The notes beneath the pieces were generated by a model. It made no database searches. It worked only from the letters and a program-made list of their open reading frames with translations, and was not told the origin of the DNA. Shown here piece by piece: positions 3,500 to 64,000 of a stretch of DNA of 64,000 nt. The DNA is from Cetorhinus maximus. Lineage: Eukaryota. Each line of letters opens with the position of its first letter. The first letter of the stretch is position 1. The stretch spans positions 23,126,001-23,190,000 of the forward strand of contig NC_135901.1 of the NCBI RefSeq assembly GCF_964194155.1. Reading direction: 5' to 3'. The translations under genes and the position numbers were made by a program.

Positions 3500-3900
3500 C
3501 CATGTTCCCCCAGCTCCCCGCCGCTCTCACTGAGGCTGCGCTCAGCCTGGAGCCGTACCGCGCATGCAGGCGGCTTCCGGGGGCGGGGCTTTCCTGCGCG
3601 TTGCTGCCCTTCTGATGGAGATAGGGCGTATTCACTCGCGCGGAGAGTCCTGGGTAGCTTCATCCGCCATTATTCATAAACTGTCCGTAGGGTAAGACGT
3701 CTGTTCCAGTACTTTTGATGCAGTCCGGTGTTTAATCCGAGCGGCCCGATACCCTTGATGTTTCTGCCAGTGACAGGACCGGGTGAGCAGCCGCCATCCT
3801 TATAGGGGCAATGGGCAGTCTGGCGCATGCGCGGCCGCTATCTCCATAGGGGCAGGGCGCATGCGCGGCCATCCTCGGACCGGATGCAGGAAGAAAAGAT
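3500..3900 (+). promoter_or_regulatory. CpG-island promoter of ZNF unit A
   Basis: CpG-rich; NRF1-like GCGCATGCGC at ~3823 and ~3857; ETS+GC box cttccgggggcgggg at ~3574; YY1-like ccgccat. Confidence 0.7.
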
Positions 3901-4100
3901 GTTGTGAATTTCTGCCCTGGATTCACAGTGAAATTCCTCTGGAAACTCCTTTTACAGGTGGTTAGAACAGGAGGATTCCCAAGCGGGAACCTCAAACCAA
4001 ATATCATGTCATGATCTGACAGTCACTCGATCATCAGGACCTGAATATCATCGGCCTCTGAATGTGGAAGGTGAAATGTCTGTGGGCAAAGATTTCAGAT
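3900..4100 (+). other. Promoter-proximal copy of the ZNF acceptor/leader module
   Basis: aactccttttacag then ..ctcaaaccaaatatcatgtcatgatctgacagtcactcga..ggacctgaatatcatcggcctctgaatgtggaagg, matching the ZNF exon head. Confidence 0.75.
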
Positions 4101-4309
4101 ATTAGACTGGGAAACTTTTAATGATGTTTTCAGGTTAAATGTGAGACCAATTACATCGATCTCATTGGGTAGGTTGAAGAATTTGTTCTATGCAGACAAA
4201 TTAACTCGTGTGCTTAAGTAAACATACTCGGCAGCTAAAAGAGCAAACCGTTGAGCTGTGTTATTCGTGAGAGTTACTATCCCAGTTTTGGGTAAAGTTT
4301 TTTTGTCCA

Positions 4310-5640
4310 TGTTGCAGTTCATTCAGCCCGTCATGTCCAAAATGGCCAATAAGTAGCCATCCAGCCTGATCCCAATTTCCAGATCTTGGTCTGCAGCCTC
4401 GTAGGTTAGGTCACTTCAAGTGTATCCGAGTGCCTTATAAATGTTATGAGGGGTTCTGTGTCTACCATCTTTTCAAGCAGTGGGTACAACTTCTCACCAC
4501 CCACTGGGTGAAAAAAAAATCCCTCGTATCTGCTCTAAACCTCCTATTTCTTTCCCTTCATTATGGACCCCTCCAACAAAGGGAATACTGCCTTCCTATC
4601 CAATCTATGGACCCCTCATAATTTTATACATTTTATTTAGGTCTCCCCTCAGCCTCCTCTGTTCCAAAGAAAACAATTCCAGCCTATCCATCCTTTCCTC
4701 ATTACTAAAATTCTCCATTCTTGGCACATCTTCTTATATCCCCCTCTGTAACTCTCTCTAGTGTGATCACATCCTTCCTGTACTGTACACAGTACTCTAG
4801 CTCTGGCATAACTAGTGTGTTATACCGTTCAAGCAGAACCTCCCTATTTTTATAATCCATGCCTCATTAGGGGTAATTATCCTGTATCCTTAATCACCTT
4901 ATCTACCTGCCCTGCTACCTTCAGGGATCTGTGGACATGAACTCCAAGATCTCTGTTCCTCTACAATTCTCAGTATCCTACCATCATGTGATCCTTTGCC
5001 TTCTTTTCCCTACAACTTTCTTCCGCACCATTAAGCACACAGCCATTTTTTGTATCATCATCAAACTTCTTATTCGTATGCCTACAGTTAAGCGTGAATC
5101 TAGTAAATAAACCATGAATGAAGGAACCAATACTGAGCCCTGTGAAACCCCACTGCAACCAGCCTTCCAGTCACAAAAAAACACCCATCAACCGTCATTC
5201 ATCACTTCCTGCCACTGAGCCAAATTTGGACTCAACTTGTAACTTGCTCTGGGGTCCCATCAGCTTCTATTTTTCTGTCCAGTCGGTCATGTGGGGCCTT
5301 GTCAATGTGGAGTGAATGTTTCCATTTGTGGGAGAATCCAAAATTAGGAGCCAGAAATACAAGATAGTTGTTGATAAATCCAATAGGGAAATATGGAGAA
5401 ATGTGTTTACTCAGAGAATGGTTAGAAAGTGGAACTCACTACCACAGGAAGTGGTTGTGGCAAAAAACTGAGATATTTTCAGAAGGAAACTAGATGAGTG
5501 CATGAGAGAAAAAGGAATAGAAAGATAAAGTGAGAGACTGAGCTGAGGTAGATGGAATTAAAGGAGAAGAGTGTGGAGTATAAAAGCCAGCACACACTAG
5601 TTGGGCCAATGGCCTCTTTCTATTCTGTATTTTCTGTAAT
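4310..5640. mobile_element. Old CR1 fragments (minus 4310-5305, plus 5306-5640)
   Basis: SGVSQGSVL / KFDDDTK RT remnants on minus; FTQRMVRKWNSLPQEVV on plus. Confidence 0.75.
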
Positions 5641-5662
5641 TTTATGTAAACTCTTTTTACAG

Positions 5663-6373
5663 GGTATTAGGAATCAAAGAAAAAGGAAAACCAATTATCG
5701 AGATCTGTCAGAGTCACTCGATTCATCAGGAACTGAATGTCATCAGCCCTTGAATGTGGAAGGAGAAATGTTTGTCCGTTCTGTCTGAGGGAAAAAAATT
5801 TCAAACATCAGTGTGACTGGAAAAGATACACACACACGTGAGTGAGGGTGTTCCAGTGAACGGATTATGGAAAGAGCTTTGACTAGTTACACAGCCTGAG
5901 AAAGCATCACACCATTTACAGCAGGGAGATCCTGTACATGTGTTGTGTGTGTGGACGAGGCTTCAACTGGTTATCAAACCCAGAGAGATACATGGACACC
6001 CACATCCAAGAGAAACCGTGGAAATGTGGGGACTGTGGGAAGGGTTTTTGTTGCCCGCCTGAGTTGGAAACCCATCGATACGTTCACACTGGGGAGAAGC
6101 CGTTCACATGCTCCGAGTGTGGGAAGGGGTTCATTAAATCATTCAACCTGCAGACACATCAGCGGGGAGAGGCCATTCACCTGCCCTGAGTGTGGAAAGG
6201 GATTCACTCGTTTGACCCACCTGCGGACACACCAGCGAGTTCACACTGGGGAGAGGCCGTTCACCTGCTCCGATTGTGGGAAGCGATTCGTTAAGTCATC
6301 TAACTTGCTGACACACCAGAGAGTTCACACTGGCGAGATGCCATTTGCCTGCTCTGAGTGGGGCTTGTTGTAA
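5663..6373 (+). pseudogene. C2H2 zinc-finger pseudogene A
   Basis: Acceptor at 5662; about 4 TGEKP-linked fingers; family start ATG replaced by CAA (6007); frameshift near 6160; truncated at ~6360. Confidence 0.85.
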
Positions 6374-7369
6374 CATGACAATTGGTTAACTTAATTGGAT
6401 CTCAAATTACTTACACCACCTTCTCTCATTATCTTAGACAGCAATACAATAGAACTGTTTCATACTATCCCTTTATCCGATTCCATAAAATCCCTTATAC
6501 AGTTTCAAATGTTGAGGCTAATCAGGGTTTGAAGGTCTCTCTTGCCAGTACATTTATCTTCATTGCACATTCTTCACATACAAAGCAATTAAGGTTTCAC
6601 ATTTTTACAGCAAATAAAACTCAAGTCTTTTACTATAACGATTGATTCATTATTGATTTATTAATTGTAATTCAATTGAGGCCCACTACTTATTCAATCA
6701 TCTGTTACTGACTGGTACCTAATTAATCCAGTAATGTTTAATTAATAGATTTGGTTAATACAAGATAGACTGGTTCAAAAAGACAGTTTGTGGAAGACAA
6801 TAGCTTTCTTACTAATCTTGATTGGATGGAACAATGGGCCTTATTCTTGAGCTGGATTTTGGCAGAATCTAATGTCCTGTAGCTTATCAAAATTAGAAAA
6901 GCATTTCTTTGTTTAAACAATTTCCATTGGGCCTGCAGTTTCTGGAAACATTTATGTTAAAGCAGTGTTTATGATAAAAAATAAAGATCCAGCCATATGT
7001 TAGAGTTTAAAATGGTTTCCTTGACCTTTTTATTTATAACAGTGAATACGGTATGAAAGTGATTGATTTTTAAAACTAAATTTGACTACCAAGGCCTACC
7101 TACAGTTTCATACATTACAACAGTGACTATACTTCAAAAGTACTTTATTGGCTGTAAAATGCTTTAGTAGGTCCTGTGGTCCTGAGAGACGTGACAGAAA
7201 TGCAGTTTTTTTCTAATTATCCACAAATTTGAATATGTTACACTTGGTCCCAGCATCAACATCATTGATCAGGATTGAATCTTAATTTTGTGCAATAGCC
7301 ATGTCTCTGACACCATTTTGAATGCTCTATAAAAATCCAAACACATTATATCCTGAATTAGGTGTTTTA

Positions 7370-8756: not shown

Positions 8757-10010
8757 TCACCTGTGAACTCGCTGGTGTGTCTGTAGGTGAGATGACTGAC
8801 TGAATCCCTTCCCACACACGGTGCAGGTGAATGGCCTCTCCCCAGTGTGAACTCGCAGGTGTGTTCGCAAGTTGAATGAATTAGTGAATCCCTTCCCACA
8901 CTCAGGGCAGATGAACGGCCTCTCTCCAGTGTGAACTTGCTGGTGTGTCAGCAGGTGGGATGACCGACAGAATCCCTTCCCACACTCAGAGCAGGTGAAC
9001 GGTCTCTCCCCAGTGTGAACTCGCTGGTGTGTATGCAGGGTGGATGAATCACTGAATCCCTTCCCACACTCGGAGCAGGTGAACAGCCTCTCCCCGGTGT
9101 GAACCCGCTGGTGTATCCGAAGGCTGGATGACGTTCTAAACCTCTTTATGCAGTGACAGCAGCTGAATGACCTCTCCTCAGTGTGAATGCGCAGGTGCAC
9201 TCTCAGATCTGCAGCAATTTTGAAGCCACTTCCACAGCCAGAGCATTTAAAGGGTCTCTCATTGGTGTGAGTGACATGGTGTGCCAGCAGGCTGGATGAC
9301 TGAGTGAATCGCTTCCCACACATGTTGCAGCTGAATGGCCTCTCCCCGGTGTGAACTCGCAGGTGGGTCCGTAGGGCGGATGAATGAGTGAATCCCTTCC
9401 CACACTCAGAACAGGTGAATGGCCTCTCCCCAGTGTGAACCCGCTGGTGTGTCTGCAAGTTGAATGAATTACTGAATCCCTTCCCACAATCAGAGCAGAT
9501 GAATAGACTCTCCCCAGTGTGGTGCATCAGCAGGTTGGATGACCGAGTGAATCCTTTCCCACATTCAGAGCAGGTGAATGGTCTCTCCCCAGTGTGAACT
9601 CGCTGATGCTTCCTCAAGGTGGATGAATCACTGAATCCCTTCCCACACTCAGAGCAGGAGAATGGCCTTTCCCCGGTGTGAACTCGCTTGTGTGTCAGGA
9701 GGTTGGATGAATGAGTGAATCCCTTCCCACACTCACAGCAGGTGAACGGCCTCTCCCCAGTGTGACTGCGTCGATGAATCTCCACCTTAGATAGGGATCT
9801 GAATCCCTTCCCACAGTCAGGGCAGGTGAATGGTCTCTCGCCGGTGTGAACGCCTTCGTGTTTCAATAAGTTGGATGAATTACTGAATCCCTTCCCACAC
9901 TCAGAGCAGGTGAATGGCCTCTCCCAAGTGTGACTGCGTTGATGAATCTCTAGCTCTGATGGGGATCTGAATCCCTTCTCACAGTCCCCACATTTCCACG
10001 GTTTCTCCAT
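8757..10010 (-). CDS. C2H2 zinc-finger protein B, 417 aa, 15 repeats (14 intact)
   Basis: Uninterrupted ORF from ggcaccATGG (strong Kozak) [10 protein letters not shown]; HTGERPF linkers; finger 6 has an in-frame 3-aa deletion. Confidence 0.9.
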
Positions 10011-10240
10011 GGTGCCAGTGTCCTTGTATCTTTCCAGGTTTGACAATCAGTTGAAGCCCGGTCCTCACACAGAACACGTGTACAGTCTCTCCCCACTGTG
10101 AAGGGTGTGATGTTTTTTCAGGCCCCAATAAATCAAGCGACTCTGTCAGATCTTGATGAGATGTTTGGTTTGAGATTTCTGTCTGCAAAATCTCCCCTTC
10201 TAAAACCCTGTAAAGGGAGTTTACAAAATTCATCAACGTA

Positions 10241-10443: not shown

Positions 10444-11459
10444 AAGATTCATCACTGTCAGTACAGGATAGAAGTTCAAAAAAGACAACTCTAGTTTCTA
10501 TGGATCATTCTTTCCTCTCTCATTCCCCAAAAGTAACTCTATTCTCTCTTTGTTGTACATAATATTCACCCTAACCACTCTTCCGAAGCAGCGATTCATG
10601 CTGATCGACAGGTCCATGGTCATAGCTTCATGTTCTGGACACAGGGACCTGAAAATCTTTATGTGTGTATATGTGATAGACATGCATGAAACTAGATGAA
10701 AAATGTGTGATATGCAGTACTTCTTAATTAGAGATACAGTGGAAGGGGGATGTGAGGAAGAACTTTATGTCGGCAGTGAGAGGTCTTAATCTGCATCGCT
10801 GCCTATAAGGATGGTCGAAGCAGAGATGAATTATTGCAAAATGAAACTGGATGGGCACTTGAAGGAAATAAACTTACACAGGAACAGGGATATAGAGGGG
10901 GAATGGGATTGCCTCGATGGTTCTACAGAGAGTTGACATGGATTCGAGTTGCTGTGTCATGATGAGTCTATGATTGTAAATATGTACAATAATATATTAA
11001 AACAAGTAGAAATAACTATAAATATACTTTACTGCAGAACCATAAATAATATTTCTAATACGTACCTTATAACAGCACTAGACTTATCTCTGGCCTATAT
11101 TAATTTACCGTCCCCTTAAATGTCAGCCATCCCCTTGAAATGTGAACATTAGGAAGGAGGCCGTCCTCTTAGGCAGGCAAATAAACGTGTCAAGCTGAGA
11201 GAGCAAAAGATGTCAACGTCTTTAAGAGAGAGACAGAGAAAGAGAGAGACCTGGGCCAACCTTTCCAGACTCTGAACCCTCCCTGGGTTCACTTTCTTTC
11301 CCTTCAGCTCCTGCAAATCAACAATTTAAACCCAGAATTGGAAAAGAAATGGAAAGCGGGTGGAAAAAAAGTGTTTTACTCACAGATGTGGAACAGAGGA
11401 GGAAATTTAAGTGGGTGTGAAACTCATTGTCCAACTTACGCTTCAGACAATGGGGGAAA

Positions 11460-11900
11460 CTCCGTGTGGCCTTTGGCACAAAGCCCGCGCTCTGATTGGT
11501 TGGAACATCTGTGTCTTTCCGTTCCTCCAGTTATTCCTATTGGTCAAACTCTCGTATGAATCCAATGAGGAAGCGGAACCCGAGCCCACATGGGCAGGAG
11601 AGACTTTGACCTCCAGACGCGCTGAGCTATTGTCCAATCCGCAGTATCTTGCTTCTGTCACCAGTGTTATTCCTCCCAATGGTAGACTGTGCGCTGGGAA
11701 CGCCCCTTGAGTCATTGTGAAGTCCGCAATGAAATGCTGCCTGAATCAGCCAATAGGAATCATCCTGCTCCGCGGTGACGTCCTCGGGTTCCAATCTGCG
11801 CCAGACTCGCGGACACGGGAGCCCCGCCCTCACCCATTGTTCTCCCTCTCTCGAGCCAAGGTTGACGGCTTCGGCCAATGGGGAGCTCTGGAGGACCGGA
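11460..11900. promoter_or_regulatory. Candidate bidirectional promoter between divergent ZNF-B and ZNF-C
   Basis: CpG-rich; 8 CCAAT/ATTGG boxes (~11494, 11539, 11562, 11634, 11676, 11750, 11791, 11875); TGACGTC at ~11776; GC box at ~11822. Confidence 0.7.
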
Positions 11901-12089: not shown

Positions 12090-12890
12090 GAGCAGTGAAG
12101 CGCAGAATTGTCGAGGAGGCCATTCGGCCCATCGTGTCTACACCGGCTCTCTGAACATTTTAATTTCGTGCCCATCTCCTGCCTTTCCCCCGTAACCCTG
12201 CAGATTGTATCTGTTTAGATAATCATCCAATGCCTCAACTGAACCTGCCTCCACCACACTTCCAGGCAGTGCATTCCAAAGCCTAACTACTCGCTGTGTG
12301 AAAAAGTTTTTTCTCACCTCGCATTTGCTTCTTTTGCAAAACACTTTAAAACTGTGCATTCTGGTTCTCGACCCCTTTACGAGCGGGAACAGTTTCTCCC
12401 TATCTACTCTGTCCAGACCCCTCATGATTTTGAAAACTTCTATCAAGTCTCCTCTGACCCTTCTCCTCGAAGGAAAACAGTCCCAACTTCTCCAATCTTT
12501 CCTCATAACTGAAGCGTCTCATCCCTGGAATCATTCTTGAAAACATCTTCTGCACTCTCTCCAATACGTTCACATCCTTCCTATAGTGTGGCACCCAGAA
12601 CTGCACACAGTACTCCAGTTGAGGTCTAACCAGTACCTTATATAAACTCAACATAACCTCCCTGCTCTTGCACTCTATGCCCCTTTTAATGATGCCTAGA
12701 ATACTGTATGCTTTAGAAACAGTTCTCTCTACCTGTCCTACCACCTTTAATGATTTATGTTCATATACACCCAGGTCTCTCTGCTCCTGCACACTCTTTA
12801 TGATGGTATCCTTTATTTTATACTGTCTCTCTGTGTTCTTTGTACCAAAGTGTGTCACCTCATGCTTCTCCGCATTGAACTTCATCTGCC
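12090..12890 (-). mobile_element. CR1 (HER1-like) LINE 3' part
   Basis: ORFs 12400-12885 and 12138-12506 are CR1 ORF2 C-terminus; CR1 tail at ~12100. Confidence 0.9.
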
Positions 12891-13546
12891 AGATATGTCC
12901 AGTGTTGTTATCTGCTACACTGGTATATTATTTATGGTTCTGTAGTCAAGTACATTCATTATTATTTCTAGTCTTGTAATATAGTACTGTAGCTACGCTA
13001 TGTATTTCCAGTCAGAATCCATAGTAGGCATAGTAGGAGTCCATTCGGCAACTTGAGTCCATGCCGACTATCTGTCGAGCAACCCAGTCAGTCCCATTCC
13101 CCCCTTTATATGCCCATAACCCTACAAGTTTACTTCCTTCAAGCGCCCATCCAATTTCATTTTGAAATCATCAATGATTTCCTCTTCCACCATCCTCATA
13201 TGGTGTGTGTTCCAGTTTATGATCACTTGCTGTCCAAATGAAGTTCTTCCTCACATCCCCCATTTATCTCTAATCAAGTAATATAGTACTATGCATAGGT
13301 GAACAGCCCGCATGAAGATTTTCAGGGTTCTGTGTCCTGGGTAGGAAGCAGTGAGCATGGATCTGTCATTCAGCATGAACTGGCACCGACAGGAGAACTG
13401 GGAGGGTGTATATTAGGGACAGCAGAATGAGATTTACAACCTTTCAGGAATGAGAGAAGAAAATATGTTTCATAGAAATTAGAACTGTCTGTTTTGAAAT
13501 TCTATCCTGTAATGACTGTGTTGACTCTTGTAAACTCCTTTTTCAG

Positions 13547-14920
13547 GATATTGGAAAGGGAGGATCTAAGGACAGAAATCTCAAAACAAACATCACGTTA
13601 AGATCTGACAGAGTCACTCGATTAGTCACAGTGTAAATATCATTGGCCTTTGAATCTAGACGGAAAAGTGTTTGTCTGTGCTGTCTGGTTCAAAAAATTT
13701 AAACGTCAGTGTGACTGGAAAAGCACCGAGACACACACACCCGAGTGAGAGTGTTCAGGTTACGCAGCCTGAAAAAGCATTACACCATTCACAGTGGTGA
13801 GAGTCTGTTCACATGTTCTGTGTGAGAACGAGGCTTTAACTGATCATCAAAACTGGAGGGACAAAAGGCAACCTACACCAGGGAGAAACCATGGAAATGT
13901 GGGGACTGTGGGAAGGGATTCAAAGCCCCATCAGAGCTGGAGATTCATCGACGCAGCCACACTGGGGAGAGGCCGTTCACCTGCCCTGATTGTGGGAAGG
14001 GATTCACTCAGTTATCCAACCTGCTGACACACCAGAGAGTTCACACTGGGGAGAGGCCGTTCATCTGCTCTGATTGTGGGAAGGGATTCACTCAGTTATC
14101 CAACCTGCTGACACACCAGAGAATTCACACTGGGGAGAGGCTGTTCACCTGTTCTGAGTGCGGAAAAGGATTCACTGATTCATCCCGTCTTCTAACACAC
14201 AGAAGGATTCACACTGGGGAGAGACCCTTCACCTGCTCTAAGTGTGGGAAGGGATTCGGGGATTCATCCAGCCTCCGGAGACACCAGCGAGTTCACACTG
14301 GGGAGAGGCCATTCACCTGCTCCGTGTGTGGGAAGGGATTCACTCGGTCATCCCACCTGCTGACGCATCAACAAGTTCACACTGGGGAGAGGTCACTCAC
14401 CTGCTCCATGTGTGGGAAGGGATTCACTCAGTTATCAACCCTGCTGAGACACCAGGCAGTTCACGCTGGAGAGAGGCCATTTCCCTGTTCTGTGTGTGGG
14501 AAGAGATTTGCTCGGTCAACCAGACTGCTGACACACCAGCGAGTTCACACTGGAGAGAGGCCATTCACCTGCACTGAGTGTGGAAAGGGATTCACTGATT
14601 CCTCAAGCCTGTGGAAGCACCGGCGGGTTCACACTGGAGAGAGGCCGTTCACCTGCTCTGTATGTGGGAAAGGATTCACTGAATCACCCAGCCTGCGGAC
14701 ACACCGACACGTTCACACTGGGGAGAGGCTGTTTATCTGCACTAAGTGTGGGAAGGGATTCACTGATGCATCCAGCCTGGGGAAGCATCAGTGAGTTCAC
14801 ACAGAGGAGAGAGGCCATTCACCTGCTCCGTGTGTGGGAAGGCATTCACTGAATCATCCAACCTGCTGAAACACCATGGCAGTCACACCAATTAGAGACC
14901 TTTTAGATACTTCGACTCTG
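13547..14920 (+). pseudogene. C2H2 zinc-finger gene C, start-less (open frame 13844-14794, 10 intact fingers)
   Basis: Family ATG changed to AGG at 13880; frame open to TGA at 14792 inside finger 11; first in-frame ATG at 14408; frameshifted 12th finger follows. Confidence 0.8.
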
Positions 14921-14922
14921 GC

Positions 14923-16344: not shown

Positions 16345-16640
16345 TGAGACTAGAAAATGGGAACGGGCTTTTAAAGCTCTTGTCACAGTCTAAGCATTTA
16401 AACCTTCTCTCTCCAGTATGAACTCGCTGGTGTGTTTGGAGGCTGGATGACCGAGTGAATCCCATCCCACACATAGAGCAGGTGAACAGTGTCTCCCCAG
16501 TCTACATGCGCTGATAACTTTCTAACTCAAATGATTAATTGAATCCCTTTCCACTGTCCCCATGTTAACTCGGTTTCTCCCCAGTGTGACTGCGCTTGTG
16601 TCTTGACAGGCCAGATGATCAGCTGAAACCTCATCCAAGG
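16345..16640 (-). pseudogene. Zinc-finger gene relic
   Basis: [29 protein letters not shown]; upstream [16 protein letters not shown] like unit D. Confidence 0.8.
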
Positions 16641-19693: not shown

Positions 19694-20570
19694 TTACTCG
19701 TGAACTTGCTGATGTTTCAGCAGGTGGGATGATTGAGTGAATCCTTTCCCACACTCGGAGCAGGTGAATAGCTTCTCCCCGGTGTGAATTCGTTGGTGTA
19801 CAGTGAGTTGAGATGATTTCCTGAACCCAGTCCCGCAGTGAGAGCACCTGAACGGCCTCTCGTCAGTGTGAATACGTTGATGGGACATCAATTCCCAGGA
19901 AGTTTTACAGCACATCCCGCAGTCTGGGCATTTAAAAGGTCTCTCATCAGTGTGAACTCACTGGTGTTTCAGCAGGGTGGATGTTTGAGTGAATCCTTTC
20001 CCACATTTACAGCAGGTGAACGGCCTCTCCACAGTGTGAAGTCACTGGTGTACAATGAGTTGAGATGATCACTTGAACCCAGTCCTGCAGTGAAAGCACC
20101 CAAACATTCTCTCATTAGTATGAACACGTTGATGGGACATCAGTCCCCCAGAACTTTTAAAGCAATTCCCACAGTCCAGACAGTGTGAACTTGCTGGTGG
20201 GTCAGCAAGTTCGATGATCGAATAAATCCTTCCCACAGATGGAGCAGATGAATGGTTTCTCTCCAGCGTGAATGTGTCGATGAGTTTCCAGTTCAGATGG
20301 GTAACTAAGTGCTTCCTCACAGCCCCCACATTTCCATGGTTTCTCCCCGTGTATTTGCGCTTGTGTCTTGACAGGCCAGATGATGGGCTGAAGCCTGGTC
20401 CACACACAGAACACATGTAAAGTTTCTTCCCACTGTGAACGGTTCTTTTTACTTCCATGTTCAAAATCCAATGATAACCAAGTTACTATAAATTGGGCGA
20501 CTCCGTCAGATCCTGATGTGATGTTTGGTCTCAGTTTCCCTAATGCAAATCTTCTCCTTCTAACACCTCC
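19694..20570 (-). pseudogene. C2H2 zinc-finger pseudogene D
   Basis: About 9 fingers split over several frames (ORFs 20069-20464, 20202-20588, 19694-19915). Confidence 0.85.
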
Positions 20571-20574
20571 TCCA

Positions 20575-41000: not shown

Positions 41001-41149
41001 GGTGCTCCATGTATTTACATATTCAGTTTGTTGTCATTTTCTCCTTTCTCACTCCAGATTACTTCAGTTCTCAAACCTTCCGTTACAAGTCCCAGCTCCC
41101 CAATCCTGCCACTGAATTTCCTTTCTCACTCCACTGTGTTGTTCCTTCA

Positions 41150-41900
41150 AATCAACCCTGCTGTCTGTCCTGAATGAATCCATTTCACTAACAAATGTTG
41201 AAATGTTTGCTCCACACCCACAGGGTTTCATCTGGTTAAAGCCACAAACAGAAAGATCCAGTTTTCTCCTAGAGTTTGACACAAATCAGCTTCCAAAATG
41301 ATGCAGAAGTTACAGCCAATGAAGGAGATCCGGGCTCAGCCCCGCCCCTCATTCGCTCCGATTGGTTGGAGGGCCATCCGTTCCCTCGCAGTCCTCGAAC
41401 CCCGCCCCCTCTTCCTATTAGTCCAGAGCTGCCGTCAATCACTCCCCAGTTCCTGTGAACTGGAGCATGCGCAGTGCGGGTGATGGCGGACAGTTGAGGC
41501 GGTTGTGTGGAAATTCTCAGCCGGTAAATTGCTGCCGGGCGGGTCATGAGGGAGGGAGGCAGTGGGATGGGAGTCTTCATAAACACCAGTGCGGGGCTTC
41601 TCCCTCCCGGGAACAGGTCCAGGTTAACGGACGCCATCCTGGGTCAGCGAGTGGAGGATGGTTCACATCAGAGGATGGGGGAGGGGGGACAATAAATAAG
41701 AGGTTACACTTTGGGCTCAAATCAATGAGGAATCTGGTCTGTGGGAAGGAAGGAAACCCTGGGAGGTGCGCGGGGAGGATTCAGAAACACCCGCTGGAGG
41801 CCCCAAACCCCTAACAACAACCTACACTGGAATCCTTACTTTCTGTGCCGCCATCTTGGTGAAACAACAGCGAGTGGGCGGGGCTACAGGGTCCCAGTGA
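41150..41900 (+). promoter_or_regulatory. CpG-island promoter of ZNF unit F
   Basis: CCAAT/ATTGG, GC boxes, NRF1-like agcatgcgca at ~41464, YY1 gccgccatctt at ~41847. Confidence 0.72.
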
Positions 41901-42784
41901 CCAGGAGAGAAAATGATTGATTCATTGATTATATTCTCCCTCTGCACAGAGAGGCTTGAGAACTCAACCTAGCCAGAATGGAGGGAAGGAGAAAACTGGC
42001 AGTTGGGGAAAGGAATGTTGGAGATGGTGTGATGAGTTTGGCAGGCTGACCAACAAAAATTAAAGGACACCCTGCCATGGGAGTCCATTTGAGTCGGTGG
42101 GAGGGTGTTGGGTGAGATGCTGACAGAGCTGTTGGAACAAAGAAACAGTAGGGGACAGGGTTCTGCACAATGAAAGGGGTCCAATTTAGGAGACAAACAG
42201 TGCCCAGCACCATGCAGCCTAGGATAGTTGACTTAAATACAGGGAAATCCCATAAATTAAGGGATGGCTGTTCACTCTGAGGTTTGGATTCCAGTACGAG
42301 GAGGAGGAAGAGTGTGTGGGATGAGGATTTACGGCTTTGCAGGAAAAAGTGAGGAAAACCGGTTCCATAGAAACTAGAATTGTCTGTTCAGAATTTCTGT
42401 CCTGCACTTACAGTGATGAGTTTTGTAAACTCCTTTTCCAGGGTATTAGAACTGGTGGATTTACAGACAGGAGGCTCAAACTGAACATCACAACATGATC
42501 TGACAGAGTCACTCAATTCACCTTTGAACGTGGAAGAAGAAATGTTTGTTTGTTCTGTCTGTGGGAAAAGATTTCAAACATCAGCGTGACTGGAAAAGCA
42601 CCGAGACACACACACCCGAGTGAGAGTGTTCCAGTGCACAAACTGTGGAAAGAGCTTTAACCAGTTACACAGCCTGAAAAAAAAATTACACTGTTTACAG
42701 TGGGGAGAAACCATACACGTGTTCTGTGCGTGGATGAGCTTCAACTGATTGTCCAACCAGGAGGGAGACAAACATACTGGCATC

Positions 42785-43375
42785 ATGGAGAAACTGTGGA
42801 AATGCGAGGACTGTGGTAAAGGATTCAATTCTTCATCTCGGCTGGAAATCCATCGACGCATTCACACTGGGGAGAAGCCATTCAGCTGTTCCGTGTGTGG
42901 GAAGGGATTCACTCAGTCATCTGGCCTTCGGTCACACCAGCGAGTTCACACTGAGAAGAAGCCATTCAGCTGCACAACCTGTGGAGAGAGGTTCAAGTCT
43001 TCATCCATCCTCACTGAACACCAGCGAATTCATACGGGTGGGAGACCATTCACTTGCTTCGTGTGTGGGAAGGGATTCACTCAGGTATTCGCCCTCCAGT
43101 CACACCACCGAATGCACACGAAGGAGAATCCATTCAGCTGTACTTCCTGTGGAAAGAGCTTCAGGCAGTCAATCGACCTCAATGAACACCAACGCACCCA
43201 CACTGGGGAGAAGCCGTTCACTTGCTCCATGTGTGGGAAGGGATTCCGTTGGTCATCCCAACTGCTGACACATCAGCGAGTTCACACCGGGAACAGACCG
43301 TTCACCTGCTCCTTGTGTGGGACGGGATTCACTCAGTCACAACACCTTCTGAGACACGAGCGGGTTCACAAGTGA
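42785..43375 (+). CDS. C2H2 zinc-finger protein F, 196 aa, 7 intact fingers
   Basis: ggcatcATGG Kozak; MEKLWKCEDC...HERVHK*; acceptor near 42441. Confidence 0.88.
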   Translation: MEKLWKCEDCGKGFNSSSRLEIHRRIHTGEKPFSCSVCGKGFTQSSGLRSHQRVHTEKKPFSCTTCGERFKSSSILTEHQRIHTGGRPFTCFVCGKGFTQVFALQSHHRMHTKENPFSCTSCGKSFRQSIDLNEHQRTHTGEKPFTCSMCGKGFRWSSQLLTHQRVHTGNRPFTCSLCGTGFTQSQHLLRHERVHK

Positions 43376-43819
43376 CTGCAGTGATTGGATTCTGCTGTTA
43401 TTGCTGCTGTTAATCACATCCAGGTCTGATAATCTGACAATATTTGGGTTGTTTCTGCTGATGTTAACAACCCTATAACTGACTGCAGTTTAATATTCTG
43501 GAGATGTCACAATGTCTCTTTTTAAAAATGCCATTTACAATCTTTCTGCTGAATTCAAGAATTCTCACCAGGAATTAGTTTGCAATAAAATTAGGAACTT
43601 TTGCTGCAATCCTAAATTGATCTTTGATGCAAAATCTACAATTCAATGTCTGAGAGGTTCCACTGGTTAACATCACCAATTAGAAAGTGCTGATTAATCC
43701 TTGCTAACAATTCTTACCGATTGCCACATTCTTCACTTGCCACCTCCATTTTGAAATTAAATTATCAAGGAACATGAAACAAAACAGTAAAATATTTTAC
43801 AGACACATCAATAAAAGCT

Positions 43820-52900: not shown

Positions 52901-53228
52901 GAACCTTTCCCCTTGGTGGAGGGATTAATAACCAGGGGGCATAGGTTTTTGGTAAGGGGCAGGAGGTTTACAGGGGATGTGAGGAAGAACTTTTTCACCC
53001 AGAGGGTGTTGGGAACTTGGAACTCACTGCCTGAAAGTGTGGCAGAGGCAGAAACCCTCGTAACATTTAAGAAGTATTTGGACATGCGCTTGCAATGCCA
53101 TGGCATACAGGGCTATGGGCCTAGTGCTGGAAAATGGGATTAGAATAGTTCGGTACTTGTTTGACCAGCATAGACTTGATGGGCCTAAGGGCCTTTTTCT
53201 GTACTGTAGACCTCTATGACGCTATGAG
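49949..53228 (+). mobile_element. Long CR1 (HER1-like) LINE: ORF1 esterase end, ORF2 endonuclease and RT, degraded
   Basis: ORF1 VVISGLLPVP..WLERWC..GF.F.GHW..DGLHL; EN YFNARGL.NK.DEL, GVYY.PP, SDHN; RT GNYRPVSLTS, YLDFSKA; inserted in an older CR1 (49678-49948/53229-53340). Confidence 0.92.
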
Positions 53229-53754
53229 TTACCAAGAAATCCAACAGGGAATTCAGAAGAAACATCTTCACCCAGAGAGTGGTGAGAATATGGAACTCAC
53301 TACCACAGGGAATGGGTAAAGTGTATAGTACAGATGTCTTTCAGACAAGCATTTGAGATTTCTACGGCTCACTCAGGATTTTCTTTGAAAAGACTTGAAC
53401 CAATAAGGAAACAGGAGATATTTTGATGGGTTTGAGAGTGTGTGTATGGTGTCTGTGAGTGTGATTGCTGCTTTTCATTAGCTGCAATGCACCTTCCTCT
53501 ATCTGAGCAGATGATGTTGTGCAGCTTAGAATCCCATCAAGTGATTTGAATGTTGGTTAATTTATTGAAACCATGGACTTTCCCCGTTCTGAGGATGGCA
53601 TTGACGTTGGAGTGATATCCAAAGTTAACAAATTTATTGCAGAAACACCTTCAACTGGGAATCAGTGAATTAAGTGGAAAGATCACAGACAAGCGGTTCA
53701 GAACAGTGCACTGCGGGCGCAACAGCTCAATCACTAAACTGTAAATTCCTGAAA

Positions 53755-54420
53755 TAATCCCTGCTGTCTGCCCTGAATTAATCCATTTCTCTGACAAATG
53801 TTGAAATGTTTACTCCGCACCCACAGGGTTTCATCTGTTTAAAGCCACAAACAGAAAGGTCCAGTTTTCTCCTGGAGTTTGAGACAAATCAGCTTTGAAA
53901 ATGATGCAGAGTTTCAGCCAATGAGGGAGATCCGGGCTCAGCCCCGCCCCTCGTTCACACTGGTTGGAGGACCATCCGCTGCTGCTGGGTCCTCCAACTC
54001 CGCCCCCTCGTCTTATTGGTCCGGAGCTGCCGTCAATCAGCCAGGCGTTGTGATCTGGAGCATGCGCAGTACACATATGAACGGGTCATGTGGAAGCCCG
54101 TGAGAAACTGCGGGAGGGATGGAGCTGGAGGGAAAGTGTAGGCCCCAAACCCGCCCTCCCCACAGTAACAAACAGAGGCAGTCGTGTCAAATGTAAAGCG
54201 GGTGAGAAACAGCCGAGTGCGGAATAGTAATGGAGCCGGTGGGTTTGTGCCAACCCTTCACACACCCCAGATGGAGGCCTCAAATCCCAGATAAGAAGCT
54301 CCCGCTCTCGTGGTTGTAACGAAAAATAGCGATTGTTCCTCGGTCACAGGCCCGAATTAACGGCCGCCATCTTAATAAGGTCAATATTCAGCAGGCGCAT
54401 GTGCGGTCATCCCTGTCCCT
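53755..54420 (+). promoter_or_regulatory. CpG-island promoter of ZNF unit G
   Basis: Close paralog of 41150-41475; CCAAT, GC box, NRF1-like; YY1 gccgccatctt at ~54363. Confidence 0.72.
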
Positions 54421-55360: not shown

Positions 55361-56807
55361 GGTATTAGAAGAGGAGGATTTGCAGTCAGGAAAAACAAAC
55401 CAAACCTCATGTCAAAATCTGAAAGTCACTCAATTCATCGGGATCTGAAGATTTGTACATCTGAAGGGATTTAATTGACCATCTCAGCTGGAAACTGGTG
55501 ACAGGCCGTTCACCACCTCCTGTGTGAAGGGATTGATACAGCTGGTAAACATGCTGACACGACAGTGAGCTCGCAATAGTGAGAGCCCGTCCACCTGCTC
55601 CTGTGTGGGAAGAAATTCATGTGTTCATCTAACCTGCTGGCACACCAGCTCGATCATGATCATGAGGATCCTCTTCAATGCTCTGACTCTGAGAAAAGCT
55701 TTGAAACCTCTGAGGAACTGGTCCAACACCAGCTCCTTCACATACACAAGAAGGCCGTTCAGCTGCTCTCACTGTGGGGAGTCGTTCAGCAAGTCAGTGC
55801 ATCTCACTGAGCACCAGCGAGTTCACACCAAGGACAGGCCGTTCAGCTGCTCCTAGTGTGGGAAGAGATTCACTCAGTCCTCCCATTACACTGAGCACCA
55901 ATTGGTTCACTCAGAAAAGAGACCTTTTAAATGTACTGAATGTGAGAAGACCTTTAAAAGAAGCATTAATCTGCTGAGACACCAGTGCATTCACATTGGG
56001 GAGAGGCCGTTCCCCTGCTCGGTATGTGGGAAGAGATTCACTCATTCATTCCACCTTATGATACATAAGTGAGTTCACACTGGAGAGAGACTATTCACCT
56101 GCTCCCTGTGTGGGAAGGAATACAGTCAGTCATCTGATCTTATGATACACAAGCGATTTCACATTGGGGAGAGACCATTCAGCTGCTCCGAGTGTGGGAA
56201 GGGATTCACTCGTTCAACCCATCTTTCAATGCACAAGCGAATTCACACTGGGGAGAGACCATTCCCTTGCTCTGTGTGTGGGAAGAGATTCACTCAGTCA
56301 TCCACCCTGCTAATACACAAGAGAGTTCATACCGGGGAGAGACCATTCATCGGCTTCGTGTGCGGGAAGAGCTTCCCTCGTTTATCCCACGTTTTGATAC
56401 ACGAACGCGTTCACACCGGGGAGAGGCCGTACATTTGCCCCGTGTGCGGGAGGGGATTTACTTGTTTACACCACCTGCTGAGACATCAGCCTGTTCACAC
56501 CGGGGAGAGGGCGTTCATGTGCTCTGTGTGTGGGAAATGTTTCACTGAGTTGTCCAGCCTCCAGAGACACCAACGCATCCACACTGGGGAGAGGCCGTTC
56601 ACCTGCTCCGTGTGTGGGAAGAAATTTGCTCAGTCATTTGATCTGGTGAGACACGAGCAAGTTCACACCAGGAAGAGGCTGCTCACCTGCTCCGTGTGTG
56701 AGAAGAGATTTACTTGCTCATCCAGCCTGCTGAAACACCAGCAGCTTCACATGCCACCGACAAAGTTGGATTGTGTTGTTGCTGCTGTGGATCATGTCCA
56801 GGACTGA
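55361..56807 (+). pseudogene. C2H2 zinc-finger gene G (5' fingers decayed; residual ORF 56142-56807 with 6 intact fingers)
   Basis: Stops at ~55854 and ~56070 in upstream fingers; ORF runs into the family 3'UTR motif. Confidence 0.75.
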
Positions 56808-58580
56808 ACCTTTTCTCCTTTCTAACTTCAGATTATTTCAATTCTCAGACCTTCTGTTACTCTCAAGGACAATTTCCAGTTCCCCATACCTTCCAGAGTA
56901 TTTTCTCTAGCCTTGGGATCCAGGGAATGTATCGGTAACACACGTGGGATCACTAAACACAAAACCCAATCTATTAATTACTTTCAGGGACTGGAGTTAG
57001 TGTGTGTCCCACAGCACCTCTCTCACCTTTGAACATCACACCTGTAAAGGAGGTTTAAATTTAAATCCTCATAAACTTAACAGGAACCAGCAGGCTGATG
57101 AGACTCTTTTAAACTGTTAGTGTGCTCCTGTACTGCTCTGTATTTTGCCTGTAATGGAAAATGCCTGAATCCTTTGTCCCAGTGGAACCTTTGCTGTTAT
57201 GAAATGTGGGAGAATATTAATGAGTCTCTCATCCTTGCCCATGTCTGCTGCAATTGTGTAGAAAGGGGATGTGTAAAAGAGCTGGTCTTCATATGGAGAT
57301 GTGAACCAAGGAAATGGTATCTGTGTGTGATAGTAACACAGGCTTGTGCTCACACCCAGAACAATGCACAGATATCCTTGTGGTTATGGTTTGAGCAGGG
57401 TCAGATCACGGATGTAGTGAACAAGTTAATTATAAATATCTCCAGTGTAGCTGCAGCTTTTTAGATCAGAGCTGGGGAGAAGAGAGCTCTGAATCCACTG
57501 TATTATCTGTTCTCTGGATTGGGTAACTACATTTTTTCAATATAACGGTGTTTTATTCAAGAAATACATTCACAGCTGAAAGACTGAATTGTAACTTACA
57601 GCAAGAAAATTCATAAAATTTAATGTAGAGATATAAAATCTAGTTAAAAACATGGGGAATATGTGACAATCTGTCATAACAAAATTCGGCAAACAAATGC
57701 AGCAGGTAACAGGGAAGCGGTGGACGAGATATTAGAGGAAGGAATATTGAATTAAAATTATATTAAAATTACAGACCAATCCACCATTCCTATATTACAG
57801 GCTCTGAAATATATAAATGATGACATTTATAAGTACTTCATTGAGGATTGGAACCATGGAAGGAATTACTCTGTATGATTGCAGTGCTGTTAATAAAGTC
57901 AGGAAAAGACAATCTGATGTTGTGAGCTTGATTATCTGGTGTCTGAAACCACAAGATTCAATATTTAGAGTCAACAAGATGAACAAGGAAACACATCACA
58001 GCCCAATACTCCAGCTCAATATTCACAGGAGAAAGTCTGTTATCGAACACCTCGAGTGGTCAGAACAGAGGAAGATCCCAACTGTAAGAAACCCTCCAAT
58101 CATTTGTAAATATCTTTCAAATGTCAACAGGTTCCAACTGTCAGTTTCCATTACATTGAAGTCAATGGAAGGTGAGAGCGGTTGAAGGTTCCATATTGAA
58201 ATGCAACTTCTTGTTATTGCCTAACATTGGTAGACGCAAGAATATCACACAAACATTTTAAATCCTCGTACCATAATTATCATAGTCATTTTCAGATTGG
58301 AAACTTAAACCTGCTGTTTCACTCTCAATCAGGAACATATCACAGTTTTACACCAATCCCTGATTTGACAGCACGTGTCCAGCATTCACCTTTGTTCTTC
58401 CTGACTCTAAACCCAGTTGTAAAGGAACTTTCTGTTCTGTGTCTAGGAGTTCTGAACCATGGAAGAGAGCGGCTGTGACACATTTCTTCCACACCTCAGG
58501 ATTAACCCATAAGTTCAGTCCTGGATGTGATTAACAGCAGCAATAAGGACACAACACAAACCCAGTCATCACTAGTGGAC

Positions 58581-59410
58581 TTACTGAAGTCTCAGAAGGT
58601 GGGATGAATCAATGATTCCTTTCCCACACATGGAGCAGGTGAATGGCCTCTCTCCAGTGTGAGTGCGTTGGTGTCTCAGCAGATCACTGCTGTTTTTAAA
58701 GCTCTCCTCACAGTCAGAACATTTAAAAGTTCTCATATCAGAGTGAACTCGCTGGTGTCTCAGGAGGTTTGATGAATGAGTGAATCCCTTCCCACACACA
58801 CAGCAGATGAACGGCCTTTCCCCAGTGTGAACCCGCTGATGTATTGTGAGATCAGATGATGTCTTGAACCCAGTCCCACATTGACAGCATCTGAACGGGC
58901 TCTCGTCAGTGTGAACACATTGATGGCGCATCAGTTCCCTGGAACTTTTATAGCAGTTTTTGCAATCTGGGCATTTAAAAGGTCTCTCATCAGAGTGAAC
59001 TCGCTGGTGTTTCAGCAGAGTGGATAAATCGGCAAATCCCTTCCCACACTTGCGGCAGGTGAACGGCCTCTCCCGGTGTGAACTCGCTGGTGTGTCAGTA
59101 GGTTGGAAGAACTGGTGAATCCCTTCCCACACTCGGAGCAGGTGAAGGGCCTCTCCCCAGTGTGAATCCGCTGGTGTTTCAGCAGGGTGGGTGACCTAGT
59201 AAATCCCTTCCCACATTCAGGGCAAGTGAACGGTCTCTCCCCAGTGTGATTTCTCTGGTGTGTACGTAGACTGGATAACTGAGTAAATCCCTTCCCACAC
59301 TCGGAACACATGAACGGCCTCTCCCCAGTGTGAATGCGTTGATGAATTTCCAGGTCAGATGGGTAATTGAATCCCTTCCCACAGTCCCCACATTTACACG
59401 GTTTCTCCAT
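58581..59410 (-). pseudogene. C2H2 zinc-finger gene H (9 intact fingers, one 1-bp frameshift)
   Basis: [10 protein letters not shown]; frameshift at ~59073 in the linker G-run; tenth finger ends LRLQ*. Confidence 0.75.
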
Positions 59411-60199
59411 GACATGGGGGTCCTTGTGTCTCTCCAGGCTGGATGATCAGTTGAAGTCTCGTTCACACAGAAGATGTGTATGGTTTCTCCCCACCGTGAA
59501 TGGTGTGCTGTTTTTTCAGGCTGTGTAACTGGTTAAAGCTCTTTCCATAGTCAGTTCACTGGAACGCTCTCACTTGGATGTGTGTGTCTTGGTGATTTTC
59601 CAGTCACACTGATGTTTGAAATCTTTTCCCTCAAACAGAACAGACAAACATTTCTCTTTTCACATTAAAAGGCTGATGATATTCAGGTCCTGATGAATCG
59701 AAAGACTCAGATCTTGAAATGATGTTTGGTTTGAGTTTCCTGTTTGCCAATCCTCACCTAACAATACCCTATAAAAAGAGTTCACAAAAGTCATCATGTC
59801 AGTCCAGGATAGAAATTCAGAACATAATTCAAGTTTCTGTGTAACATGTTTTCCCTCAAAGCTGTAAAACCCCATCCCACACCCCGTCTTCCCTGTGCAG
59901 ATTCCAGTTAAGTTTTTGTCCTCCATTCCCAGTTTTCTCCCTCCCTCTCCTCTGGCTGGGTCCAGTTCTCCAGCTCTTGTGTGCAAACTGAGAATAAAAT
60001 CAATTAATCAATCATTTTCTCTCCTGGTCACTGGGACCCTGAAGCCCTGATTACCCAATGTCCCCTCACCAAGATGGCCAGGGATGCACCCGGCTGGCTG
60101 AACAAGTCCTGCCCTCCTCTCTCAAATGGCAACCGGTAGTCTGAGTAACCTGGGCATATCACCAGGAAGGGAGCCCCACATCCCATGTCTGCCGATTTC

Positions 60200-62560: not shown

Positions 62561-62679
62561 TAAACACATAATTGATGTAAACTTTATTGTCCTTACAGGT
62601 ATCTGGATGTAAATCTGATTTCAGACCTTCCTCTGAACAGTTTTCAAACTAACTCCAGCTCGTTGTCCATTCCTTCACT

Positions 62680-63130
62680 AAAGACCCGGATGGAAAACAC
62701 TCAGCACAAGTTGGCGGCGGCTGGTTGCCCGGGTAACCCGGGCCTGTCACCGGGGAGGAAGCCCCGTCCTCACTCCTCTCTTCCCACATCAAGATGGCCG
62801 CCTCTGCGCCTGGCTCCCTGAACAAGAGCCACCTTCCTCTCCCAAGATGGCGGCATCCGGTGAGCCCGGCTCCCAGTGCGCAGGTGCAGTGAGGGTGTGC
62901 GCTCTGAGCATGCTCAGTGTCAGTCATGGTGACAGAGTGAGGAGGAGCGGACGGTGAGGGAGGAGATTGTGAGCACAGGGTAGGAATGGAAACCGCGGCT
63001 GGACTGGGAACTGGATCAACTTCTGGGGTAGGCCCCAGGCCCTAGGCCCCGTGTTTACCCCGCGGTGACAGGCCCGGGGGGAGGGAGCGATGGAGCCGCC
63101 GGCTGGACGGGGAGGATTTGGAAACACTTT
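62680..63130. promoter_or_regulatory. CpG island between divergent ZNF-H and ZNF-I
   Basis: Two YY1-like caagatggc sites (~62790, ~62843); NRF1-like tgcgcaggtgca / gagcatgctc. Confidence 0.68.
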
Positions 63131-63142
63131 GTGGATCCGCAA

Positions 63143-63213
63143 AGCGGCTGCTCAGTTAGTGGTTAATGGAGATCAGAAACCCAGAGTCAGAGTGTCGAAC
63201 CCCACATTGGGTG
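63143..63213 (+). pseudogene. tRNA-Lys-like pseudogene
   Basis: cggctgctcagt...gtcgaaccccacattgggtg versus GCCCGGCTAGCTCAGT..TTCGAGCCCCACGTTGGGCG. Confidence 0.5.
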
Positions 63214-63689
63214 GTTGTTTTATTAAATATCGTTATTTATTATTTATTTACTGAAGAATATGTTCATATATTTGTTTTAAAGTCATTTTATAGCATTTGT
63301 GAAAAGACCTATTAAAATACAATCCCCTGATGTATTTCTGATGAGAATTTGACTGACGAGGTTTTGAAGAACAGTCAATCCTAACATGATTGTGTTTTAA
63401 TTTACTCCCTAATACCAGATTTCAGCTTGTATTTCAAAACTTAATTTAGAATGTCAGTCCAGCAGCAAATGGTAAAATGAGATATAAGACACCAGTTGCA
63501 CTTGAAACCATCTCTGACTTTTCGTGTCCGACACTGTCCTTGTGCTGATGCAGGAAGTACTTCCTCTGGTGTTGTGGCACAAATAAATGCAGCCTCTCCC
63601 GGGAACAGGCCCATGTTGGTGGTCTTCATGTTTCAGCGGCGAGCAGAGCACGTGTGGTCATTGTGGTAATGCAACACAGAGTGGGTGGG

Positions 63690-64000
63690 ACTTCAGGGGC
63701 CTGTGACCAGGAGAGAAAATTATTGACTCGTTGATTTTACTCTCACTCTGCACACAGGACAGAAAACTGAATTCAGCCAGTCTTGGGTGGGGGTGAGGGG
63801 AGCTTGGGGGGAAGCTCAGAGTGGAGACTTCAGATGGTGCAACAGGTTTGGATTCCAGCCTAGGGATGAGGGAGTGTGTGTGGGACAGGGATTTATAGCT
63901 CTGAGTAGATGAGAGGAAAAATGTTCCACAGAAACTAGAATTGTTTGTTCTGAATTAGTTTTGTAAATTCCTTTTCCAGGGTATTAGAAGAGGAGGATTT
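63690..64000 (+). other. Intron and acceptor of the next ZNF unit I (exon starts 63980)
   Basis: tgaccaggagagaaaat.. as at 41899 and 60015(-); ccttttccag|ggtattagaagaggaggattt. Confidence 0.8.

What the first reader, a model, noticed from the sequence alone, without database searches (positions are those of the whole stretch)
3500..64000. Array-only (KRAB-less) zinc-finger cluster amplified as promoter-intron-array-3' flank units
Seen: 8 arrays, 2 relics and a ninth start in 64 kb, in both orientations, sharing introns, leaders and 3'UTRs. The intact proteins are almost pure finger arrays with divergent recognition helices, and most copies are dead. Known: KRAB-ZNFs are a sarcopterygian/tetrapod system and some teleosts have FiNZ-ZNFs; both are linked to transposon repression. 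Inference: an independent birth-and-death ZNF system in cartilaginous fish whose effector mechanism is not evident from sequence.
Basis: partly seen in the sequence, partly recalled or inferred. Interest (0 to 1): 0.7.

Follow-up and report, generated by a model that had tools for sequence, protein, structure and literature searches.

The report
Shark chromosome of bare zinc-finger genes
This window is a slice of a chromosome, likely from a shark, that is packed with zinc-finger genes whose reading frames hold fingers only, with no room for a silencing domain, and that were recently copied in large multi-gene blocks; they likely bind transposon or other repeat DNA, but neither targets nor partner are tested.

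Summary
In detail: 8 finger arrays, a relic, duplicated leader exons and a ninth start lie in 64 kb. Only 2 of the 8 arrays are intact. The window belongs to a 65-Mb contig that carries arrays along its length.

No upstream effector exon can join in frame. All 55 intact ORFs with a locatable acceptor have a stop between acceptor and ATG, and the leader of dead fingers shows no codon signal. The genome's only KRAB match lies on another contig.

Two corrections. (1) Recent growth was by blocks of 60-80 kb: the window recurs at three other places, and some genes dead here are open there. (2) Contact residues diversified in the older radiation (dN/dS about 1.75) but are under purifying selection among recent copies (0.33-0.39).

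Transposon targeting, expression and the cofactor are untested. A readthrough tail and a leader RNA hairpin were tested and rejected.

Shark finger-ORF counts and array-only families in insects are in print. This scan has reported the same family many times, on this chromosome and in other genomes. Verdict: a real, under-described variant of known poly-zinc-finger expansions.

The parts
3400..3900 (+). CpG-rich promoter-like block of unit 1 (GC-box and YY1-like motifs; motif names recalled)
3958..4070 (+). Duplicated leader exon (acceptor AG, GT at its end), probably a non-coding internal exon
   Evidence: splicing inferred
5663..6373 (+). Unit 1 array exon, dead: start codon lost, frameshifted, truncated
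8757..10010 (-). Intact array-only CDS, 417 aa, 14 canonical fingers plus one with a 9-nt deletion; open in both duplicates examined
10011..10207 (-). Non-coding leader (dead finger, 4 in-frame stops) back to the splice acceptor
11400..11900 (.). CpG-rich block with CCAAT/GC-box motifs between the head-to-head units 2 and 3; likely shared promoter
   Evidence: function inferred
13547..14905 (+). Unit 3 array exon, dead: ATG lost, stop in finger 11, frameshift
16399..16631 (-). 3-finger relic
19694..20458 (-). Unit 4 (start type MEGK-like), dead: frameshift and several stops; acceptor region replaced by a 29-bp tandem repeat
29600..30100 (+). CpG-rich promoter-like block upstream of unit 5
30318..30433 (+). 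Duplicated leader exon of unit 5
   Evidence: splicing inferred
34642..35621 (+). Unit 5 array exon; ATG 34751; 5 fingers then frameshift; lacks 4 fingers (336 nt) present in two duplicates; 13-finger ORF intact in one duplicate
41150..41500 (+). Promoter-like block of unit 6 (CCAAT, GC-box, NRF1-like motifs; names recalled)
41590..41817 (+). 228-bp promoter-proximal block, much more uniform among units than its flanks; at least 135 copies; all 20 copies sampled by its core 28-mer have a finger array downstream
42442..42784 (+). Non-coding leader made of dead fingers, 3 in-frame stops; sub-block about 42578-42680 more conserved than the rest
42785..43375 (+). Intact array-only CDS, 196 aa, 7 fingers; open in all three duplicates examined
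43376..43430 (+). Shared 3' UTR block; not under coding constraint
53750..54400 (+). Promoter-like block of unit 7, 86% alike to 41149-41475
55361..56807 (+). Unit 7 array exon, dead here (stops, frameshifts); 14-finger ORF open in one duplicate
58575..59768 (-). Unit 8 array exon; ATG 59410; 4 fingers then frameshift; 9-finger ORFs in two duplicates
62700..63140 (.). CpG-rich block between units 8 and 9 (head to head)
   Evidence: function inferred
63980..64000 (+). Start of the ninth unit's array exon

Best explanation
These genes belong to a chromosome-scale family, likely of a shark, whose intact members encode C2H2 fingers alone, and they likely act as sequence-specific binders of transposon or other repeat DNA that block it directly or draw in a partner on the finger surface. 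Shown: each coding sequence sits in one exon behind a leader closed by stops, so no upstream domain can be attached. In the commonest type the start codon occupies a finger-linker position in a strong start context, and the fingers before it have decayed into leader. Shown: recent copies arose as 60-80 kb blocks in which single genes then died in some copies and lost fingers in others. Shown: contact residues -1, +3 and +6 changed faster than neutral sites in the older radiation and are now kept by purifying selection. Inferred: DNA binding, transposon targets and repression. Speculative: the family's conserved first finger (W before the first Cys, P+1, S+2, E+5) is the docking surface for a partner.
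For: In-frame stop between acceptor and ATG in 55 of 55 testable intact ORFs (27 of 27 families), with no alternative acceptor after the last stop. Leader mismatch by codon position is flat (0.157/0.147/0.163; 0.148/0.146/0.149), against 0.067/0.139/0.170 in the CDS. Purine at -3 in 40 of 42 leaders and G at +4 in 41 of 42. Pfam finds only zinc-finger-type matches in 3 proteins. One KRAB match in the genome, on another contig; none of the 150 scored SCAN matches is on this contig. Segmental copies and gene-by-gene death. dN/dS at -1/+3/+6 is 1.75 (bootstrap 1.31-2.27) in 11 older gene pairs. In the strictly homologous first finger, codon positions 1-2 of the contact codons mismatch at 39%, against 14% in the leader and 19% at third positions (42 leaders); the same positions of dead fingers mismatch at 10%. 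Non-structural codons have dN/dS 0.33-0.54 among recent intact copies. Analogy: zinc-finger ORF number tracks retroelement number across animals (PMC10547256, passages read).
Against: No binding, target or repression data. Among recent paralogs (36 genes, 8 families) contact residues are under purifying, not positive, selection: dN/dS 0.33-0.39, like other non-structural codons, so an ongoing arms race is not visible here. 42 of 60 nearby arrays are broken, and blocks were copied together with dead genes and LINE fragments, so much of the copy number may be passive. Older-pair dN/dS can be inflated by finger shuffling and conversion of scaffold codons, and related sequences are not independent. 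Hemipteran array-only expansions did not correlate with repeat content (PMC6444547, passage read). The first exon is not defined.
Confidence: 0.55

Rival explanations
1. The intact members are ordinary lineage-specific transcription factors or satellite/chromatin binders with targets other than transposons, and the diversification served host regulation.
For: Purifying selection on contact residues among recent copies. Two window genes are open in all copies examined, and the 14-finger gene differs by only 2.3-2.6% against 4-6% in the flanks. No repeat correlation for the insect analogue (PMC6444547, passage read).
Against: Faster-than-neutral contact change in older comparisons and high turnover match families with shown transposon targets (PMC10547256, passages read).
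Confidence: 0.22
2. The cluster is mostly passively amplified DNA: segmental duplication and gene conversion inflate a few functional genes, and most intact frames are just young.
For: 42 of 60 arrays broken. Blocks copied with dead genes. The 14-copy family shows weak constraint (class dN/dS 0.56-1.25 outside structural codons).
Against: Pooled non-structural dN/dS 0.33-0.54. Contact sites exceed neutral rates. The start motif is shared with named Heterodontus proteins.
Confidence: 0.13
3. The arrays bind RNA (for example retroelement transcripts) or other proteins rather than DNA.
For: No effector domain. That some C2H2 arrays bind RNA is recalled knowledge.
Against: Canonical linkers are conserved, and variation concentrates at the DNA-contact positions -1, +3 and +6.
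Confidence: 0.07
4. An unrecognised effector peptide is attached, from an upstream exon, the leader, or stop-codon readthrough into the shared 3' block.
For: The majority leader and the majority 3' block each read as an open frame; a few genes have lost the first stop and translate the tail.
Against: Stops close the leader in 55 of 55; no codon signal. The tail has pN/pS 1.07, and 35 of 67 tails are shifted or stopped.
Confidence: 0.03

Closest known systems
KRAB zinc-finger (KZFP) clusters of tetrapods (PMC2604467, PMC10380595; passages read)
   Same: Single-exon finger arrays, clustering, finger gain and loss, pseudogenes, positive selection at contact residues in older paralogs.
   Different: No KRAB and no in-frame upstream exon; the start codon lies in the array exon. 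PMC2604467 left open whether domain-less poly-ZF genes are real or mis-annotated; for this family the stops show they are real.
Cyprinid FiNZ-ZNF genes on zebrafish chromosome 4q (PMC10547256; section 4, passages and two supplementary files seen in part)
   Same: Hundreds of arrays concentrated on one chromosome in a fish; diversified contact residues.
   Different: FiNZ is a 28-aa domain on its own upstream exon; here no upstream peptide can be in frame. Transposon repression is shown for FiNZ genes, not here.
Hemipteran ZF271-like / APEZ expansions (PMC6444547; passages read)
   Same: Arrays with no other domain, tandem clusters, pseudogenes, unknown partner.
   Different: Insect, about 115 genes with variable exon structure; here likely thousands of single-exon arrays with a fixed start motif. 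Homology not tested.
Shark zinc-finger ORF expansions already counted or annotated (PMC10547256 supplement: 475-3586 ORFs in the 8 cartilaginous-fish assembly rows shown; NCBI 'zinc finger protein 850/721/239-like' of Heterodontus francisci)
   Same: Same family: identical start motif, first-finger signature and 3' tail in the Heterodontus proteins examined.
   Different: Counted or auto-named only. In searches I found no paper describing their array-only anatomy, start-codon origin or selection.

Membership tests
KRAB-ZFP | KRAB domain (PF01352) N-terminal to the array | tested here: not met
   One KRAB match in the genome, on another contig; none in 3 proteins
KRAB-ZFP | Upstream coding exon spliced in frame to the array exon | tested here: not met
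   Stop between acceptor and ATG in 55 of 55
KRAB-ZFP | Tandem C2H2 array in one exon, clustered, with birth and death | tested here: met
KRAB-ZFP | Positive selection at DNA-contact residues | tested here: inconclusive
   Met in older pairs (1.75), not in recent paralogs (0.33-0.39)
KRAB-ZFP | TRIM28-dependent repression of bound transposons | not testable with these tools
   No binding or repression data; presence of TRIM28 in this genome not searched
FiNZ-ZNF | 28-aa FiNZ domain on an upstream exon | tested here: not met
   No upstream peptide can be in frame; a FiNZ profile itself was not available to search
FiNZ-ZNF | Concentration on one chromosome | tested here: met
   7 of 20 spaced 10-kb samples from 5.5 to 61.5 Mb hold arrays; 96 of the first 100 listed start motifs are on this contig (list in contig order, 387 not listed)
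FiNZ-ZNF | Expression at zygotic genome activation and transposon derepression on knockdown | not testable with these tools
   Only contig-level runs of uncertain kind
Array-only poly-ZF expansions (ZF271-like type, a grade rather than a clade) | No domain besides the finger array | tested here: met
Array-only poly-ZF expansions (ZF271-like type, a grade rather than a clade) | Common descent with the insect family | not tested
   No tree built with outgroups
PRDM9-type arrays | KRAB-SSXRD-SET upstream and near-identical minisatellite fingers | tested here: not met
   No upstream frame; 84-nt repeats within an array match at only 64-78%

The most novel reading that the evidence does not exclude
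Sharks run a third vertebrate zinc-finger defence in which most of a 65-Mb chromosome encodes bare arrays, made by moving the start codon into the array, and repression is recruited through a family-specific first finger instead of a KRAB- or FiNZ-type domain, while conversion of a shared promoter-proximal block keeps hundreds of members co-regulated.
Probability: 0.25. Interest if true: 0.8.

Novelty: new variant of a known kind. Interest (0 to 1): 0.5.

Why it matters
Whether domain-less poly-zinc-finger genes are real or annotation gaps has been an open point (PMC2604467). This family answers it by sequence: they are real, numerous and under selection in a lineage with no KRAB-bearing arrays. 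If they repress transposons, vertebrates have a way to silence with fingers alone, and the fixed start region makes the family easy to knock down as a group, as was done for FiNZ genes. The weight is reduced because large shark counts and array-only families are already in print, the function is untested, and this scan has found the family repeatedly.

Tried and rejected
Expression: no RNA holder listed. The runs laid are guessed to be RNA, hold only part of the stretch and are contigs only. Contigs 95-99% alike cover the 7-finger array and the 228-bp block. Depth relative to a DNA-type run is 7-10 times higher after the acceptor at 42442 than before it. No GT-AG joint is among the 15 of 102 and 15 of 35 joints shown. 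Contigs cannot show level, start or strand, so expression and exon 1 remain open. One loose end was not found in the loci held.

Leader RNA hairpin (lead from e1-9511618): the majority sequence folds at -22.4 kcal/mol and the block is more conserved than the rest of the leader. But only 25% of changed pairs keep pairing, against 33% expected; there are 3 double changes; and the mean z-score is -1.5. Structure not supported.

Readthrough tail as effector: pN/pS 1.07, 23 one-base gaps, only 32 of 67 tails in frame and open. Rejected.

Conserved upstream ORF in the leader: no codon signal; only 8 of 42 keep both ATG and full length. Rejected.

The 228-bp block as coding exon or known RNA: one-base indels among copies; no Rfam match in the window.

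Protein search with the leader peptide found no candidate (uninformative). Whole-array searches are dominated by unrelated long arrays. The codon-model run did not print dN/dS; no branch-wise test was made. Extraction of the duplicates of unit 3 failed, so its copies are not assessed. PMC3205565 is not held. No structure or complex prediction was run; no motif prediction against transposons was possible. Three supplementary archives of PMC10547256 were not searched and may say more on shark arrays.
Full report
1. Observation. A six-frame scan finds 74 C2H2 motifs; 73 are in the arrays and one, at 60248, is a lone motif in a frame that looks like a retroelement end (recalled). A finger DNA model groups them into 8 arrays and a 3-finger relic. 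Self-comparison shows shared promoter blocks, intron ends, leaders and 3' blocks at 67-86%. Two arrays are intact: 8757-10010 (-), 417 aa, and 42785-43375 (+), 196 aa. Two are truncated by frameshifts after 5 and 4 fingers, and four are dead. Units 2/3 and 8/9 sit head to head around CpG-rich blocks. Over 464 kb, 38 of 59 neighbours have opposite orientation.

2. Scale and taxon. The window is G000:C24:23126001-23190000 on a 65-Mb contig of a 4.0-Gb genome. The 464 kb around it hold 60 arrays of 4 or more fingers, 18 of them intact. Seven of 20 spaced 10-kb samples, from 5.5 to 61.5 Mb, hold 13 arrays; a rough extrapolation is a few thousand arrays. The acceptor region gives 2503 first-look candidates, and the exact 30-nt start motif 487 matches. 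Named Heterodontus francisci proteins begin with the same MEKPWKC start or its MEGK-like alternative and carry the same 3' tail; none of the six listed has a KRAB annotation. Cartilaginous-fish origin is therefore inferred, not stated by the tools.

3. No effector can be attached. From 87 distinct ORFs with 5 or more fingers and a start, 57 ended cleanly at the terminal finger; the other 30 were dropped. For 55 of the 57 the acceptor could be placed. All 55 (27 families) have at least one in-frame stop between acceptor and ATG, and none has a pyrimidine-tract AG after the last stop. Among all 95 arrays examined, 3 were open to the upstream edge: one broken gene, one with a leader deletion and no ATG, and one without an acceptor. 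In 42 non-redundant long leaders, mismatch is flat across codon positions, unlike the CDS. These leaders are decayed fingers; their two shared stops are TGA in 33 and 36 of 42. The ATG sits where a finger linker has its TG residues, with a purine at -3 in 40 of 42 and G at +4 in 41 of 42. Pfam finds only finger-type matches. The genome has one KRAB match, on C34, which looks like a PRDM9 exon (resemblance recalled). SCAN matches are scattered, and none of the 150 scored (of 4987 candidates) is on C24. The shared 3' block is not a readthrough effector.

4. How the cluster grew. Window 2-63 kb recurs, inverted and collinear, at C24:18.42-18.49 and 21.14-21.21 Mb (the latter extends at least 80 kb). 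The part from 29.7 kb on recurs at 25.31-25.34 Mb, the limit of what I fetched. Substitutions are about 4-6%, and LINE fragments are included. Genes die copy by copy. Unit 5 has 13 fingers intact in one copy but lacks 336 nt and is frameshifted here. Unit 7 is open in one of four copies. Unit 8 has 9-finger frames in two of four. The two intact genes are open in every copy examined. The gene just left of the window has at least 25 copies at 95% or more. The recent unit of amplification is thus a multi-gene block; the shared cassette anatomy is the older layer.

5. Selection. Among recent intact paralogs (36 genes, 8 families, distinct variants counted once), contact codons have dN/dS 0.33-0.39, like other non-structural codons; the structural value is biased by the filter. 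In 11 disjoint older pairs (nucleotide identity 0.78 or more; 3 of 14 pairs dropped below that), -1/+3/+6 give 1.75 (1.31-2.27), or 1.62 (1.16-2.32) using synonymous sites of the same codons. This test is open to finger shuffling. The first finger avoids that problem: its contact codons mismatch at 39%, against 14% in the leader and 19% at third positions, while dead fingers show 10% at the same positions. Related sequences are not independent, so the p-values overstate the case. The pattern is episodic: older diversification, present conservation. The first finger keeps W-2, P+1, S+2 and E+5 in 35-40 of 42, residues rare in the other fingers; these genes were chosen partly by likeness to a first finger, so this is a lead only.

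6. Promoter-proximal block. Window 41590-41817 matches at least 40 places at 96-98% although the arrays behind them are only about 70-76% alike. A core 28-mer has 135 exact copies, the first 100 all on C24. In the best-scoring set the block differs by 1.3% where the adjoining intron differs by 16% (31 pairs). In a less biased set of 20 copies the figures are 5% and 19% (74 pairs), several copies have a different 3' continuation, and all 20 precede an array. Flanks differ among copies. Gene conversion is the simplest reading; selection is not excluded.

7. Mechanism. Shown: bare arrays, block duplication, gene-by-gene death, episodic selection on contact residues. Inferred: DNA binding with member-specific motifs, most likely on repeats, by analogy with KRAB and FiNZ families. 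The genome is rich in retroelements (RT and endonuclease fragments in the window; thousands of SCAN-like candidates). Without an effector domain, the options are steric blocking or a partner that binds the finger scaffold; I favour the latter weakly, with the first finger as candidate. Because the whole CDS is in the last exon, truncated alleles would likely escape nonsense-mediated decay (established knowledge, untested here).

8. Literature. PMC10547256 (abstract passages, section 4, found passages, parts of two supplementary files; three archives not searched) counts 475-3586 finger ORFs in the 8 cartilaginous-fish rows shown and lists shark chromosomes among finger-dense ones; the words shark and cartilaginous do not occur in its main text. 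PMC2604467 (passages) raises the array-only question. PMC6444547 (passages) describes array-only expansions in Hemiptera. PMC8455134, PMC11603059 and PMC10380595 (passages) note KRAB loss or absence in fishes. Searches gave no paper on the shark family's anatomy; the library lacks most subscription journals. Earlier notes of this scan report the same family and the promoter homogenisation; I treated them as leads and tested the points above myself.

9. Verdict. Real, correctly seen, partly reinterpreted; a new variant of a known kind; interest 0.5.

Noticed in passing
window 41590-41817: Promoter-proximal block 3.5 to 12 times more uniform among paralogs than the adjoining intron; it begins and ends with pieces of the standard promoter modules in swapped order. 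Contigs of related organisms carry the majority bases at the three listed sites where the window copy deviates.
   Followed up: partly
window about 42578-42680: Dead-finger leader segment more conserved (about 9% mismatch) than the rest of the leader (12-15%) and the intron (20%), with no protein or base-pairing signal; a DNA site or conversion tract is possible.
   Followed up: partly
window 50500-53200, 30600-34400, 21300-22400, 25700-26700, 46400-47700, 12100-12900: Broken non-LTR retroelement fragments; RT and endonuclease domains confirmed for three frames.
   Followed up: partly
window 48597-49429: 20-bp minisatellite, about 41 copies, also present in one segmental duplicate.
   Followed up: no
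window 20567-20959: CpG-rich 29-bp tandem repeat occupying the acceptor region of dead unit 4.
   Followed up: no
window 18034-18233: 200-N assembly gap; the two duplicates have only about 25 bases across it.
   Followed up: partly
L111 (G000:C34:9123034-9123144, -): The genome's only KRAB match, resembling a PRDM9 exon (recalled).
   Followed up: no
genome-wide: About 5000 SCAN-like candidates scattered over many contigs, probably SCAN-bearing LTR retrotransposons (inference); possible targets of the arrays.
   Followed up: no
window 55361-56807 and relatives: One subfamily has lost the usual stop and translates the shared 3' block as a short C-terminal tail.
   Followed up: partly
C24 outside the window: A 13-finger gene beside the window has at least 25 near-identical copies, 14 distinct intact ones in the set examined, with weak constraint.
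   Followed up: partly
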